Positions 1,543 to 64,000 of a stretch of DNA of 64,000 nucleotides are shown here, piece after piece (position 1 is the first letter of the stretch; every line of letters starts with the position of its first letter). The DNA comes from Octopus vulgaris (taxonomy: Eukaryota), in NCBI GenBank assembly GCA_951406725.2, contig OX597839.1:3348001-3412000 (forward strand), written 5' to 3'. Both the position numbers and the translations under genes were made by a program. The notes under the pieces are model-generated. The model did not search any database. It saw nothing but the letters and a program-made list of their open reading frames with translations, and had not been told where the DNA came from.

Positions 1543-1962
1543 ATCTGTAAATGTAATATGTGACAATTATTCGGTAGCCAAGATAAAACTCTGAGTTTCG
1601 GATGCCTAGGTGGAAAACCACGCCACCGTCTTTTCAGTTATCCGGCCATCGGAAAAACGCTATGAAAAATGACCGTTACACCCCCTTACCTTAATTAGCG
1701 GTCATTCGAATAGCTCTTTTGTCTAAATAACGGTCAATAACACAGTAATTTCCCTTTGTATAACGGTCATTTTTCATAGTGTTTTTCCAATGGCCGGATA
1801 ACTGAAGAGATGGTGGTGTGGATTTCCACCTCGGCATCTGAAATTCAGAGTTTTATCTTGGCTACCAAATAATTGTCACATATTACATTTACAGATAAAT
1901 TCCTCTATTTACATAATATCGAGGTCTCTTTCTTTCTTTTGTTATCTTACCATTTTTACCAA
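1543..1962. mobile_element. Inverted-repeat HHR-bearing element in VPS37 intron
   Basis: Arms at about 1543-1678 and 1761-1897 are reverse complements, flanked by (TA)n. Same family at 24490-24945 and 41000-41165. Confidence 0.75.
1792..1864 (+). ncRNA. Hammerhead ribozyme in VPS37 intron, sense orientation
   Basis: GGCCGGATAA-CTGAAGA-GATG...GTGGATTTCCAC...CATC-T-GAAA-TTCAGAG-TT^TTATCTTGGCT. The mirror copy at about 1577-1647 on the minus strand has the decayed core CTGAAAA. Confidence 0.7.
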
Positions 1963-5510: not shown

Positions 5511-5551
5511 ATATAGAGATAATATTTTTTTGTTTGTTTCTCTTTTTTCAG

Positions 5552-5863
5552 AAACTTGCTCAGGATTTCCTCGATAAGAAACTTGAAGCTGAAACTTTCG
5601 TGGAAGATTACATCATGCAGCGCAAAGAGGCCCACTTGAAGAAAGTGAAAGTTGAGAAGATGACGGATTTACTGCAGAGTCGCAGCCTCTCCAGGCGAAC
5701 GCAGTCTGCTCACCATGCTTCCACGCCTTCCCTCTGTAACCATTCTTATTACGACCGAAATGAAGCCAACATCATACCCACTAGCGCCAGCACTCAGTAC
5801 AACGTGGGATCTACACCGTCAAGGCCCTACATGAACATGCCAGACCCGTCTAGTTATTTCTAA
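5552..5863 (+). CDS. VPS37: VPS37 terminal coding exon
   Basis: ttttcag|AAA acceptor. Encodes KLAQDFLDKKLEAETFVEDYIMQRKEAHLKKVKVEKM (Mod(r) C-terminal helices), then a P/S/Y-rich tail ending at TAA 5863. Confidence 0.9.
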   Translation, partial: KLAQDFLDKKLEAETFVEDYIMQRKEAHLKKVKVEKMTDLLQSRSLSRRTQSAHHASTPSLCNHSYYDRNEANIIPTSASTQYNVGSTPSRPYMNMPDPSSYF

Positions 5864-12866: not shown

Positions 12867-12889
12867 TATATATATATATATATATATAT

Positions 12890-14485
12890 TATGTGAAATA
12901 GAAAGATGAATAATCTTGTAGTAGATTAATCAAAAGTTAACCGATACCTTTCCGGAGGCACAGCCTCTTCCGCTCCCGGTTTAATGCTCAGTAGGAATAA
13001 TTATAGTAGTAATAATGATATGAGAGCCAGTACAGTGACACATAATCTCAGCTCCAGCCAGGGAGTACCCACTAGGGGTATAGTTATAAATAGGGGTGTT
13101 GTGGTTGACGGTAACAATGGGAGTAGGGTAGAGAGCCCCAATAGCAACCCCAGCATCATTTCCCGCAATAGCAGCACCACGGGCACTAGCAATGACAGTA
13201 CTCTGATAGATAGTGGAGAATCAGGGGTTATTCCTATAGTTAATAGTGACGTAGTGGAAAATAGAGTAGTAAGCGGCTGCAGGTCTCGGAACGAATATAG
13301 TGACAGGAACGCAGTTCTAATTTCAGAAACTAATCCTAGCAGATTAAGATTTACGTCGGCGAACTCCAAGATCAAAAACGCCGTCTACCAATGCAAGGTT
13401 TACACGGACTCAGATGTCTTCACTTATGTAGGGGCATCATCCTCAAGATTGTCTTTGCGTGTCTCCAATCATTACGCAACTTTTCGGGACGTGAACAAGC
13501 GCCAGACCACGGGACTCAGTAAGCTAATATGGCGACTGAAGGATACGAACTTAAGCTACAGGCTGGAATGGTCAATTTTGTCGGTGGCCCTCCCATTTGA
13601 TAGGGGCAGAAGACAGTGCAACCTTTGTGTCTCCGAACTCTTCCATATTTTGTTTGCCAGAGGCCGGATGGTAAACGGGCTCTTACAGTCGGCTTTTCGA
13701 TGCCCCCATTGGCGGCGTTACACTTATCTGGCTTTTAAATAGCGTTTATAAATAATACCGGCACCCATAGCCCTTGGTAACAAATTCTGAAATAGCCTTT
13801 AAGATATCTACGATTATCCACTGCAAGGGGAATTACTCCTGTAAGACAAACGGGGCTTGGTTTTTTCACAGCGGGGGGTTTCCTTGACAAGGTAGGCTTA
13901 GATGAACACACACACACATAAAACATAATATATATATATATATTTTTTTCTTTCTGCCACCCAACGGTTATCACGGCAGTAGCCACTGACAGCCGAACGA
14001 TCAAACGCACACACGTACACAAAAAATGTTATCTACCCCTACGCCAACACACACATATATAGAACAGTATACACACACACACGTCTCTAAGTAGATTTTT
14101 TCTCGCCCCTTATAAAACATCCAATATTCCTTAAATAGTCAGAACTTTATTCTCGGTCACTAAGAACATCTATACACCCTCACCCACTTGATTGACCGAT
14201 GCCTGACCTGTAGAATTCTTCAGCCACCGGTTCTCAGCATACACTGATAAACAGTTTCGCCATGGGCTCTTAGGAGCATAGTTCGATTTGGTTTTTGCTC
14301 CGCCTCTGTTCTGTTTTTGTTTCTCTAGCGGATTTCCTTTTTTCTTCCTGAAGAGAAAGACACAATATGGTCCCATTATTCAATCGGATTTTGGTAATTT
14401 GTGCCTTTCGAAACACGTGTAGAATGAAATAAAACGATTTCTGTTCAATCTGCGTTCAGCTCCATTTCTTCAATTCACCAATAAT
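12890..14485 (+). mobile_element. 5'-truncated Penelope-like element with C-terminal GIY-YIG endonuclease
   Basis: ORF 12984-13742 ends NAVYQCKV..FTYVGASS..LRVSNHYATFR..TTGLSKLIWRLKD..LEWSIL..CNLCVSELFHIL, typical of the PLE GIY-YIG domain. Flanked by (TA)n, with an HHR 3'-half remnant GAAACACGTGTA at about 14410. Confidence 0.8.
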
Positions 14486-15199
14486 GTTTTATATATATAT
14501 ATATATATATGTGGTAAGTAGCTTGCTTACCAACCACATGGTTCCGGGTTCATTCCCACTGTGGTACTTTTTTTTTTTGTTTTTGTGCCAGGGTCAAACC
14601 CGGAACATCCACGATGTGAATTTTCCGAGTCCTCTTCCCCACCCCACCCTTTCTCGAATGCGCATTTTTTTTTTGTCATATTCGTTTAGAGTAAGTTGTT
14701 TTACACCTATTACACTACTTTTTGTTTTGTTTTTATGACAGGGTCAAACGCTTTAGTTTAAGCCAAGACGATAGAAAGATTAGTTTGAACGCTTGAGGAG
14801 ACAGCTTATTATCTTTTTTTTTTTTTAATTTTTAATCTTTACTGCCCACAAGGGGCTAAACACAGAGGGGACAAACAAGGACAGACAAACGGATTAAGTC
14901 GATTACATCGACACCAGTGCGTAACTGGTACTTAATTTATCGACCCCGAAAGGATGAAAGGCAAAGTCGACCTCGGGTTGTGAAGATAGTCGGAAAGATG
15001 GGTACTCTCCGGTCACGTGTCAGTGACGATCTGAGGAGGAGGAGGAGGAGGAGGAGGAGGAGTAAGAGAGAGGGAACAGTGAGCGGGAGAGGAGAAGAAC
15101 AGAGACGTGCGAGAGAGAAAAACAGAAAGGATGAAGAACAAGAGAGGGAGAGAGAGAGATATATATAAAAGGGCGCGTATCATAATTATTATGATAAAA

Positions 15200-24692: not shown

Positions 24693-24764
24693 AGCCATGA
24701 TAAAACTCCGAGTTTCGGATGTCGGGGCGGAAACCCACTCCGCTATCTCTTCAGTTATCCGGCC
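24693..24764 (-). ncRNA. Hammerhead ribozyme, same family as 1792-1864
   Basis: Minus strand: GGCCGGATAA-CTGAAGA-GAT...ATC-C-GAAA-CTCGGAG-TT^TTATCATGGCT. An inverted half copy lies at about 24790-24845 and a decayed relative at about 41035-41105. Confidence 0.72.
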
Positions 24765-57026: not shown

Positions 57027-57276
<250 letters not shown>

Positions 57277-57478
57277 TACAAAATTAGAGAATGGAGAAAC
57301 ATACTTAAATCAGTAAAACATCAACTATCCGATGATACTCAATCCATACTTTAATACACCATTACATATGAGTAAAGGCAATATATAAAATGAAATGAGA
57401 TATACAGTAATAGTAAAAGTATAAAGATAAAGAGATATAAGTAAAAAATTTCAAATATAATATGCAAATAAATCAAAA

Positions 57479-57585
57479 CTGACAGCTGTTTCGGCAGTGA
57501 GGACAGTCATACCTCATTTAACCTATAAGCCATAAAGGCAGGTATAAATGAGGCATTAACAGGATGCCCCACGGCCTCTTCAGAG
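57479..57585 (-). ncRNA. Hammerhead ribozyme, mirror copy in the left arm of the 1.5-kb palindrome
   Basis: Reverse complement of 58492-58599 with a 1-nt indel in stem II. Confidence 0.75.
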
Positions 57586-57928
57586 AATTAAATTAAATTT
57601 GTTATAATAGTGAAAAATATTATATAATCATATACATATAAATATAAAAATATAAAAATGTAAAATATAAAAACTTATACATCATAATGCTACACTTATA
57701 TAATATAATACACATTTGTACAAAAAGGAAGGTAAACAGAACAAAATAAAACAAAATATATAACAGTGTATATATTAATATTAATAAGTACCGATATTAT
57801 ACATATTTGGCTAATAGTTTTTTTTATAAAAAAAAAAAGGGCTAACACATATGGAGATGAAAAATAATAATTAAATCCGTGGTACAGTTCATAAAATTCT
57901 AAAGCTATAAAAGTTAATAAAAATTACT

Positions 57929-57992
<64 letters not shown>

Positions 57993-58092
57993 TAATAAAA
58001 ATAGATACAGTTAAGTTAGCACCAAGTCCATCCTTTCAAGATATCTTGAAAGGATGGACTTGGTGCTAACTTAACTGTATCTATTTTTATTA

Positions 58093-58150
<58 letters not shown>

Positions 58151-58491
58151 AGTAATTTTTATTAACTTTTATAGCTTTAGAATTTTATGAACTGTACCAC
58201 GGATTTAATTATTATTTTTCATCTCCATATGTGTTAGCCCTTTTTTTTTATAAAAAAAACTATTAGCCAAATATGTATAATATCGGTACTTATTAATATT
58301 AATATATACACTGTTATATATTTTGTTTTATTTTGTTCTGTTTACCTTCCTTTTTGTACAAATGTGTATTATATTATATAAGTGTAGCATTATGATGTAT
58401 AAGTTTTTATATTTTACATTTTTATATTTTTATATTTATATGTATATGATTATATAATATTTTTCACTGTTATAACAAATTTAATTTAATT

Positions 58492-58599
58492 CTCTGAAGA
58501 GGCCGTGGGGCATCCTTGTTAATGCCTCATTTATACCTGCCTTTATGGCTTATAGGTTAAATGAGGTATGACTGTCCTCACTGCCGAAACAGCTGTCAG
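58492..58599 (+). ncRNA. Hammerhead ribozyme with long (~85 nt) rod-like stem II
   Basis: CT-CTGAAGA-GGCcGTGGGG...ATGCCTCATTTA...TAAATGAGGTAT...CCTCACtGCC-GAAA-CAGCTG-TC^AG. Stem III is the palindrome ACAGCTGT; stem I has only 2 clear bp in this copy. Confidence 0.75.
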
Positions 58600-58975
58600 T
58601 TTTGATTTATTTGCATATTATATTTGAAATTTTTTACTTATATCTCTTTATCTTTATACTTTTACTATTACTGTATATCTCATTTCATTTTATATATTGC
58701 CTTTACTCATATGTAATGGTGTATTAAAGTATGGATTGAGTATCATCGGATAGTTGATGTTTTACTGATTTAAGTATGTTTCTCCATTCTCTAATTTTGT
58801 AGTATTAATTTACGGTAATATTATTACCTTTACCCATTTAATACAATAGATGAACTGATTGCTTGACAATTTTTTACATCTATGTATTAATTTTGTTGGG
58901 TACCTATCTAGCAGTATATTGGATATATATTATCCCATGGTGGGTTGAATTTTCAACCCCTATCTCATTTTATAA

Positions 58976-59110
<135 letters not shown>

Positions 59111-60181: not shown

Positions 60182-60216
60182 ATTTCTGATGAAGAGCTCC
60201 GCTCGAAACGTGAAAT
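60182..60216 (+). ncRNA. Minimal hammerhead motif, probably inactive (G at position 17)
   Basis: ATTT-CTGATGA-A-GAGC-TCC-GCTC-GAAA-CG-TG-AAAT: canonical core but a GUG triplet. A relative at 55192-55226 (-) has the core CCGACGA. Confidence 0.7.
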
Positions 60217-62422: not shown

Positions 62423-62484
<62 letters not shown>

Positions 62485-62694
62485 TATATATTTTAAATTA
62501 TTACATTATATAAAAGGGCTTAGTAAAATAAATTACTTCGCCGCATACTGAACTCATTAGAAATAGCAGCTAAAAACTTTTTTTAAAGCTATTTCTAATA
62601 CTTAAAGAAAATCTCTCTCATATATAGCGTTTGCTTAATTTAACTCACAAAAGTTTGGGGGTAAGGACATTAAAAATCAAATGCTAAGGTTATT

Positions 62695-62746
62695 TGAGTA
62701 CGTACGTTTCAAGATTAGTCAAAACAACATTTCTCTCTTCAGCTCA
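62695..62746 (-). ncRNA. Type I hammerhead ribozyme, copy 1 of the 545-bp repeat
   Basis: Minus strand: TGAG-CTGAAGA-GAGA(17 nt)TCTT-GAAA-CGTACG-TA^CTCA, with palindromic stem III ACGTACGT and a GUA triplet. Confidence 0.85.
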
Positions 62747-63239
62747 TAAATTCCTTGGTTTGGATTTGGAAACACTGAAAGTAAGAACATACCCTTTCGA
62801 AGATCCGCTCTTAACTAACAGTGCCAGCAAACCCAAATAAGCAAGTGAATCATTTCTGTTCTCCCCTTTCCACCAGCGTGGGTTAAAATCATCAAACGCT
62901 ATGCTTATTTCGGTAAAATCCGAAGCAATAATTAGAGGGAGATTAATTATAATTTCAACAATTGAGGGTAAAATTAATTAATTATTAATCAATTTCACCA
63001 AGTGTTCAGTATGCAAAGGGACCATTTAAGGCGAATTCAAATTATTACATTATATAAAAGGGCTTAGTAAAATAAATTACTTCGCCGCATACTGAACTCA
63101 TTAGAAATAGCAGCTAAAAAACTTTTTTTAAAGCTATTTCTAATACTTAAAGAAAATCTCTCTCATATATAGCGTTTGCTTAATTTAACTCACAAAAGTT
63201 TGGGGGTAAGGACATTAAAAATCAAATGCTAAGGTTATT

Positions 63240-63291
63240 TGAGTACGTACGTTTCAAGATTAGTCAAAACAACATTTCTCTCTTCAGCTCA
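63240..63291 (-). ncRNA. Type I hammerhead ribozyme, copy 2 of the 545-bp repeat
   Basis: Identical to 62695-62746, offset by 545 nt. Confidence 0.85.
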
Positions 63292-63851
63292 TAAATTCCT
63301 TGGTTTGGATTTGGAAACACTGAAAGTAAGAACATACCCTTTCGAAGATCCGCTCTTAACTAACAGTGCCAGCAAACCCAAATAAGCAAGTGAATCATTT
63401 CTGTTCTCCCCTTTCCACCAGCGTGGGTTACAATCATCAAACGCTATGCTTATTTCGGTAAAATCCGAAGCAATAATTAGAGGGAGATTAATTATAATTT
63501 CAACAATTGAGGGTAAAATTAATTAATTATTAATCAATTTCACCAAGTGTTCAGTATGCAAAGGGACCATTTAAGGCGAATTCAAATTATTACATTATAT
63601 AAAAGGGCTTTAATAATTAATTAATTTTACCCTCAATTGTTGAAATTATAATTAATCTCCCTCTAATTATTGCTTCGGATTTTACCGAAATAAGCATAGC
63701 GTTTGATGATTTTAACCCACGCTGGTGGAAAGGGGAGAACAGAAATGATTCACTTGCTTATTTGGGTTTGCTGGCACTGTTAGTTAAGAGCGGATCTTCG
63801 AAAGGGTATGTTCTTACTTTCAGTGTTTCCAAATCCAAACCAAGGAATTTA

Positions 63852-63903
63852 TGAGCTGAAGAGAGAAATGTTGTTTTGACTAATCTTGAAACGTACGTAC
63901 TCA
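63852..63903 (+). ncRNA. Type I hammerhead ribozyme in the inverted copy of the 545-bp repeat
   Basis: tgagCTGAAGAgagaaatgttgttttgactaatcttGAAAcgtacgTActca read directly on +. Confidence 0.85.
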
Positions 63904-64000
63904 AATAACCTTAGCATTTGATTTTTAATGTCCTTACCCCCAAACTTTTGTGAGTTAAATTAAGCAAACGCTATATATGAGAGAGATTTTCTTTAAGTAT

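What the first reader, a model, noticed from the sequence alone, without database searches (positions are those of the whole stretch)
62495..64000. Young 545-bp tandem dimer plus inverted copy, each with an intact hammerhead: candidate circRNA-producing retrozyme
Seen: two almost identical 545-bp units (about 2 differences noticed), the start of a third, then a switch to a reverse-complement copy; no ORF. Each unit has TGAG-CTGAAGA-stem II-GAAA-CGTACG-TA^CTCA. Established: a palindromic stem III (ACGTACGT) is poorly stable in a monomer but forms when two tandem HHRs pair. Inference: a minus-strand read-through transcript would self-cleave at 63244/63243 and 62699/62698 and release a 545-nt monomer that could circularise. 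The more-than-unit-length, permuted array fits reverse transcription around a circular template. The element runs off the window, so it could instead be the pLTR array of a full PLE.
Basis: partly seen in the sequence, partly recalled or inferred. Interest (0 to 1): 0.88.

Follow-up and report, generated by a model that had tools for sequence, protein, structure and literature searches.

The report
Penelope-mobilised hammerhead retrozyme family
This is one copy of a young, non-coding 545-base repeat that carries a predicted self-cutting RNA motif and sits in TA repeats across the genome with the two-ended pattern of Penelope-like retrotransposons, which likely copied it, probably from a circular RNA: a new example of a known kind (animal retrozyme) whose copies help show how such elements move.

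Summary
Observation confirmed: two near-identical units (544 and 545 bp), 26 bp of a third, then an inverted arm; three type I hammerhead motifs; no ORF. The element ends about 196 bp past the window in (TA)n, so it is not the pLTR of a full Penelope-like element (PLE). It belongs to a young genome-wide family (at least 210 unit matches; 2,314 related ribozyme cores). New here: 49 of 50 two-armed insertions pair one end near monomer position 198 with one near 296, both pointing outward into (TA)n. Four RT/GIY-YIG-coding PLE families in the same genome show the same two-end geometry, so a PLE enzyme likely inserted whole arrays. Arms cross the ribozyme site without stopping and arrays are internally homogeneous (0.13% versus 2.0% between loci). 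That fits a circular template but does not prove it. Cleavage and circular RNA are untested, and no sequence-matched autonomous partner was found. An earlier scan note describes the same insertion pattern for a tRNA-bearing repeat in another genome. Verdict: new member of the non-LTR retrozymes, with a useful mechanistic footprint.

The parts
62429..62491 (.). (TA)n microsatellite at the left end (target site)
   Evidence: sequence; (TA)n lies on both sides in 60 of 65 loci mapped
62492..63610 (-). Left arm, sense on the minus strand: about 2.05 units, outer 3' end at monomer position ~205 (site-A class, 190-209)
62496..63039 (-). Tandem unit 1 (544 bp)
63040..63584 (-). Tandem unit 2 (545 bp)
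62699..63243 (-). Predicted 545-nt monomer between two hammerhead cut sites; strongly self-paired (z -7.6)
62695..62746 (-). Type I hammerhead motif 1, predicted cut 62699/62698
63240..63291 (-). Type I hammerhead motif 2, predicted cut 63244/63243
62948..63045 (-). 98-nt 'tail' between the two fixed ends (monomer 199-296); inferred second reverse-transcription start at 296; most conserved part across subfamilies (93-99%)
63609..63611 (.). Inversion junction, where the 5' ends of both arms meet (1-2 nt overlap)
63610..64000 (+). Right arm, sense on the plus strand, 587 nt in all; continues to about 64196 outside the window and ends in the site-B class (~296) in (TA)n
63852..63903 (+). Type I hammerhead motif 3, predicted cut 63899/63900

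Best explanation
This is a recent insertion of a non-coding, hammerhead-bearing tandem element (non-LTR retrozyme) that a Penelope-like RT/GIY-YIG enzyme likely copied into a (TA)n repeat, probably from a circular 545-nt RNA. Shown: the anatomy, the family, two fixed outward-facing ends (about 198 and 296 nt past the cut site) that occur one of each, (TA)n targets, and the same geometry in autonomous PLEs of this genome. Inferred: read-through transcripts of an array fold paired hammerheads, self-cleave to monomers and are ligated to circles; the PLE protein cuts both strands of (TA)n; each DNA end primes reverse transcription, one at 198 and one at 296; each cDNA runs a variable distance round the circle; the two cDNAs are joined at their far ends, giving two inverted multimeric arms. 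I put PLE-type integration at about 0.9 and the circular template at about 0.65.
For: Family: 210 matches from 40 of 1,148 candidates scored, the best listed at 95-100% identity; 244 exact and 2,314 loose ribozyme cores; 1,143 site-B ends abutting (TA)n on the plus strand alone, control 0. Geometry: of 64 insertions, 50 have two outward-facing arms; 49 of these pair a 190-209 end with a 284-300 end, none pairs like with like. Autonomous PLE families here also have two ends in (TA)n: about 128/186, 60/217, 21/92 and 37/108 nt past their hammerhead-type motifs, often on opposite arms. PMC11167929 (main text read) shows a PLE protein cutting and extending both strands and starting at two internal RNA sites that define the tail. 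Both arms exceed one unit in 14 of 49 insertions; inner arm ends are not enriched at the cut site (5 of 122 vs 4.5 expected), so the template was continuous there. Divergence is 0.13% within an arm, 0.27% between arms and 2.0% between loci; 22 arrays carry 17 different fixed haplotypes. The core and the stem III palindrome persist across subfamilies of 545-568 nt while the middle diverges to 65-90%. Predicted double hammerhead -23.0 kcal/mol against -4.2 for each single one.
Against: No cleavage or circle was shown. In the monomer an alternative hairpin (-11.0) beats the hammerhead fold (-4.2), and the two-copy minimum (-28.8) beats the double hammerhead. Stem II starts with G-U or U-U in place of the usual G-C, and older subfamilies have GUU at the cut site. 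Rfam finds no hammerhead. In PMC11167929 ribozyme mutants did not affect insertion in vitro, and in the 2026 preprint only 1 of 9 predicted dimers cleaved. No autonomous PLE with a homologous 3' end was found among the families sampled; the best site match (Hydra-type PLE-C, 16 of 18 nt) has p 0.0055 before correcting for 16 comparisons. Some arrays are not what a single monomer circle predicts: L209 has a block pattern, L033 has arm-specific haplotypes, L052 has markers with periods 2 and 3. Loci were picked from top hits and pattern hits, not at random.
Confidence: 0.62

Rival explanations
1. Same PLE-type integration, but the template is an uncleaved linear multimeric transcript; the ribozyme is weak, protein-dependent or incidental, and arrays are homogenised later by gene conversion.
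For: Ribozyme cleavage was dispensable for PLE insertion in vitro (PMC11167929); the hammerhead fold is not the predicted minimum; arm-specific haplotypes in L033 and blocks in L209; a linear multimer also has no stop at the cut site.
Against: Linear copying with 5' truncation only shortens arrays, yet arms of 6-12 near-identical units occur, each with its own haplotype; L047 has no variable site over 11 full units; the ribozyme core is conserved across subfamilies.
Confidence: 0.26
2. Short PLE-end fragments inserted first and then grew into tandem arrays locally by unequal crossing-over (the satellite route discussed in the 2026 preprint).
For: Within-array homogeneity; periodic markers in L052 and L032 could be block duplications.
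Against: Arrays are multimeric in copies 99-100% like each other on different contigs; both inverted arms are multimeric in 14 of 49 insertions and share array-specific variants; the outer ends stay fixed.
Confidence: 0.08
3. The array is the pLTR region of a full autonomous PLE whose ORF lies beyond the window.
For: Inverted arms, tail and hammerhead are PLE features (PMC8557442 passages).
Against: The element ends at about 64196 in (TA)n and the next 16 kb hold no long ORF tied to it; none of the arrays examined is joined to an RT/GIY-YIG ORF.
Confidence: 0.02
4. The duplication and inversion are an assembly artefact.
For: Tandem and inverted repeats beside microsatellites are hard to assemble; one array is bounded by N gaps (L047).
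Against: The same two ends recur with different inner junctions at 49 independent loci and in unrelated autonomous PLEs.
Confidence: 0.02

Closest known systems
Non-LTR retrozymes of animals (Cervera and de la Pena 2020, PMC7229834; Li, Clavereau and Pollet 2026, 10.64898/2026.07.22.740005)
   Same: Low-GC, non-coding tandem repeats with a type I hammerhead in each unit and a highly self-paired monomer. The ribozyme resembles axolotl HHR_Amex2 (2-bp helix III with tetraloop, weak base of helix II). PLEs are the proposed mobiliser.
   Different: 545-568 nt, above the 170-400 nt of the 2020 paper though inside the 51-972 bp of the preprint. The inverted arms, two fixed ends and (TA)n targeting are not described for retrozymes in the parts I read. 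The preprint links retrozymes to PLEs by pLTR homology, which I could not find here.
EN+ Penelope-like elements, Hydra and Neptune clades (Craig et al. 2021, PMC8557442; Frangieh et al. 2024, PMC11167929)
   Same: Partial tandems, an inverted 5'-truncated arm, a tail at one end only, (TA)n targets, a hammerhead upstream of two initiation sites.
   Different: No ORF; the tail is 98 nt against the 30-40 bp usually cited (autonomous families here have about 58-155 nt).
Non-autonomous Chlamys elements such as MRC1 (PMC8557442 passage)
   Same: [quoted passage not shown]
   Different: They resemble their autonomous partner at the 3' end and Chlamys mostly lack hammerheads; here a hammerhead is present and no such homology was found.

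Membership tests
Non-LTR retrozyme | Type I hammerhead core in each tandem unit | tested here: met
   Rfam models do not detect it
Non-LTR retrozyme | Short head-to-tail repeats, no ORF, GC under 45-50% | tested here: met
   GC 32.7%
Non-LTR retrozyme | Highly self-paired monomer | tested here: met
   z -7.6, 0 of 100 shuffles fold as well
Non-LTR retrozyme | Unit size in the reported range | tested here: met
   545 nt: outside the 170-400 nt of PMC7229834, inside the 51-972 bp of the 2026 preprint
Non-LTR retrozyme | Target-site duplication over 4 bp when present | tested here: inconclusive
   both flanks are (TA)n, so none can be discerned
Non-LTR retrozyme | Self-cleavage of the transcript | not testable with these tools
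   folding favours a double over a single hammerhead, but neither is the minimum
Non-LTR retrozyme | Accumulates as circular RNA | not testable with these tools
   only assembled contigs were available, which cannot tell a circle from a tandem transcript
Autonomous PLE | ORF with RT and GIY-YIG endonuclease | tested here: not met
PLE-mobilised element | Partial tandems plus inverted 5'-truncated arm with a tail at one end | tested here: met
   49 of 50 two-armed insertions
PLE-mobilised element | Microsatellite target as in Hydra, Neptune and Naiad | tested here: met
   (TA)n on both sides in 60 of 65 loci
PLE-mobilised element | Sequence homology to the 3' end or pLTR of an autonomous family | tested here: inconclusive
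   none in the families sampled; the survey of PLE families was partial

The most novel reading that the evidence does not exclude
These arrays are the direct footprint of two-ended rolling-circle reverse transcription: a dimeric PLE enzyme primes both ends of a (TA)n break at two different sites of a ribozyme-made RNA circle, sometimes a dimer or trimer circle, and it recognises the RNA by structure in positions 91-296 and not by homology to its own end. This would explain both retrozyme mobility and the tandem/inverted/tail structure of PLEs.
Probability: 0.35. Interest if true: 0.72.

Novelty: new member of a known kind. Interest (0 to 1): 0.5.

Why it matters
How animal retrozymes move and how PLEs make their tandem, inverted, tailed insertions are both open questions; the papers read propose PLE enzymes and circular templates without a direct test. 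Here a 545-nt RNA with two mapped start sites, very young copies and intact co-resident PLE ORFs gives a small system in which both can be tested in vitro. It also argues that arrays arrive whole and do not grow in place.

Tried and rejected
Rfam: no match at gathering score; only hairpin-driven microRNA and similar hits below threshold. Expression: no RNA holder listed on record. Contigs of four runs only guessed to be RNA cover the whole monomer and three cross the 545-to-1 joint (one with more than 31 letters on both sides), but that joint also exists in genomic tandems. A flank control was blank in the three guessed-RNA runs and also in the large comparison run, so it is uninformative. Partner search: a Neptune-type family (1,311 aa) and a Hydra-type family (899-908 aa), 20 GLYRDD loci, 30 RYVDD-type loci and 20 loci picked by the site-B end gave no homologous terminus. 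A 77-90% match inside PLE-C turned out to be a passenger insertion in its TA-rich 3' UTR, not its own end. A PLE near the array in L250 is separate. Pfam gave no family for two full PLE proteins. Pile-up of arm ends at the ribozyme site: none. Periodic unit markers as proof of multimeric circles: too few sites and conflicting periods. No tRNA gene in or beside the element; the bacterial promoter scan is at chance and not applicable. Look-ups of earlier findings by sequence and by place were empty.

Full report
1. Observation. Two units (62496-63039, 544 bp; 63040-63584, 545 bp) differ by one substitution and one base in an A run; a third begins at 63585 and flips at 63610 into a reverse-complement arm. 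Each unit carries TGAG-CTGAAGA-stem II-GAAA-CGTACGTA^CTCA, with predicted cuts at 63244/63243 and 62699/62698 on the minus strand and 63899/63900 on the plus strand. There is no ORF (longest frame within the element 77 aa), GC is 32.7%, and the monomer folds far better than shuffles (z -7.6). Rfam does not detect the ribozyme.

2. Beyond the window. The window lies in a 2.8-Gb, microsatellite-rich animal assembly; it looks like an octopus genome, which is recalled and not tested. The right arm is 587 nt and ends about 196 bp past the window in (TA)n, followed by ordinary repeats. No long ORF is tied to it in the next 16 kb. The whole insertion is about 1.7 kb with three ribozyme motifs, between two (TA)n runs.

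3. The family. The unit has 210 matches from only 40 of 1,148 candidates scored. The exact core occurs 244 times and a looser one 2,314 times (controls 0 and 4). Older subfamilies of 557-568 nt keep positions 91-296 at 89-99% identity and the ribozyme region at 82-89%, while 297-500 falls to 65-91% (six older units and one young one). One older subfamily has a stem III that can form 3 bp with a tetraloop in the monomer.

4. Insertion geometry, the main new result. I numbered the monomer from the cut site and mapped 65 loci (chosen from top hits and pattern hits, not at random). I dropped one locus bounded by N gaps and one decayed fragment, and split one locus holding two insertions, giving 64 insertions; three more diverged loci (L057-L059) and one duplicate (L205) were not mapped. 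Fifty have two arms whose sense 3' ends both point outward. In 49 of the 50, one arm ends at 190-209 and the other at 284-300; none pairs like with like; the remaining one has a disrupted end. Fourteen are single-armed or otherwise arranged. (TA)n flanks both sides in 60 of 65 loci. Inner ends are spread over the whole unit and are not enriched at the cut site (5 of 122, 4.5 expected). Both arms exceed one unit in 14 of 49. This is the PLE pattern of partial tandems, an inverted 5'-truncated copy and a tail on one end (10.1101/2021.04.23.441226 and PMC8557442, passages and section 11). Four RT/GIY-YIG-coding PLE families in this genome show it too, with two ends about 58, 155, 70 and 70 nt apart, all in (TA)n. 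By motifs one is Neptune-type and two are Hydra-type (PLE-B lacks the CxCX5C match); the fourth was grouped with Hydra by its RT motif only. Open frames reach 1,311, 899-908 and about 720 aa. Frangieh et al. (PMC11167929, main text) found that a PLE protein cuts and extends both strands of AT-rich DNA and starts at two internal RNA sites that bound the tail. I infer that 198 and 296 are such sites.

5. Circle or linear template. Across 46 loci, units differ by 0.13% within an arm, 0.27% between arms and 2.0% between loci; 22 arrays with two or more full units carry 17 different fixed haplotypes. Some variants seen in only one sampled array are shared by both of its arms. L047 has 11 full units with no variable site. 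With the seamless passage through the cut site, this fits re-expansion from one monomer sequence at insertion, as a circle would give and as proposed in PMC4209133 (passages) and PMC7229834 (passages and parts 3-4 of 6). It is not proof. An uncleaved linear multimer also has no stop, and gene conversion could homogenise arms. L033 (arm-specific haplotypes), L209 (blocks) and L052 (markers with periods 2 and 3) need more than a single monomer circle.

6. Ribozyme. Core nucleotides are intact; stem I is 4 bp plus a possible 4-bp extension; stem II opens with G-U (U-U in older copies); stem III is 2 bp with a GUAC loop inside the palindrome ACGUACGU. Predicted energies: single hammerhead -4.2, competing hairpin -11.0, double hammerhead -23.0, two-copy minimum -28.8 kcal/mol. 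So activity, if any, would favour tandem copies, as known for palindromic helix III (PMC4209133), and the monomer would be protected from re-cutting. The young family mostly has GUA at the cut site and older ones GUU. In the 2026 preprint (parts 1-3 of 5 read) only 1 of 9 predicted dimers cleaved, so activity cannot be assumed.

7. Partner. No sampled autonomous family has a homologous terminus. The best lead is Hydra-type PLE-C, whose first end matches site A at 16 of 18 nt (p 0.0055, one of 16 comparisons); this is weak. The survey covered only families reachable by a few motifs.

8. Prior knowledge and novelty. Non-LTR retrozymes are known from molluscs and many other animals, and PLEs are their proposed mobilisers. 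Eight literature searches returned no paper describing this family or the two-ended inverted geometry for a retrozyme. The supplement of PMC7229834 could not be read and bioRxiv supplements are closed; either may list related elements. An earlier scan note (e1-7810660, unchecked) reports the same pattern for a tRNA-bearing repeat in another genome; I read it after my own mapping. It works like a miniature non-autonomous PLE and meets the sequence-level definition of a non-LTR retrozyme; the biochemical features are untested.

9. Verdict. Real; new member of a known kind; interest 0.5. The class is known, but the strict one-of-each end pairing and the multimeric arms on both sides make the retrozyme and PLE mechanism directly testable.

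Noticed in passing
window 12883-14490: 5'-truncated Hydra-type PLE (PLE-B) with a short inverted arm and a hammerhead at 14345-14424 with palindromic stem III, ending in (TA)n.
   Followed up: partly
window 57275-58980: About 570-nt inverted arms between (TA)n runs with an extra ~165 nt on the right and a hammerhead-like core: another PLE-type insertion of an unidentified family.
   Followed up: no
window 1799-1855, 24701-24757, ~60186-60215: Further hammerhead-like motifs of other PLE-type ends; 24354-24608 matches PLE-D and 51671-51780 matches the PLE-C end.
   Followed up: partly
L149:4520-4747; L150:143-365 and 5541-5763: PLE-C carries in its TA-rich 3' UTR a ~225-nt two-armed insertion of an older relative of this retrozyme, identical in all 40 copies scored: a passenger spread by an autonomous element.
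   Followed up: yes
L059:8232-10000; L154:8140-8800: Other tandem families with hammerhead motifs (periods about 562 and 483 nt, one with a long stem II insert) that share the motif GCTGCTATTTCT with this family.
   Followed up: partly
L133:7210-7255 and other PLE-A copies: The Neptune-type family's 3' UTR has a hammerhead-like motif with C in place of the conserved A9.
   Followed up: no
L052:2621-7363: Unit markers recur with period 3 at one site and period 2 at another in the same arm: multimeric circle, block duplication or assembly effect.
   Followed up: partly
L033:1898-8188: Both arms contain the same 198-to-395 deletion unit in the same register, yet differ by six or seven arm-specific variants. 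Unexplained.
   Followed up: partly
L149, L150 and several other PLE-C copies: Many young PLE-C copies share a frame break between RT and endonuclease (506-aa frame), while a few have frames of about 720 aa.
   Followed up: no
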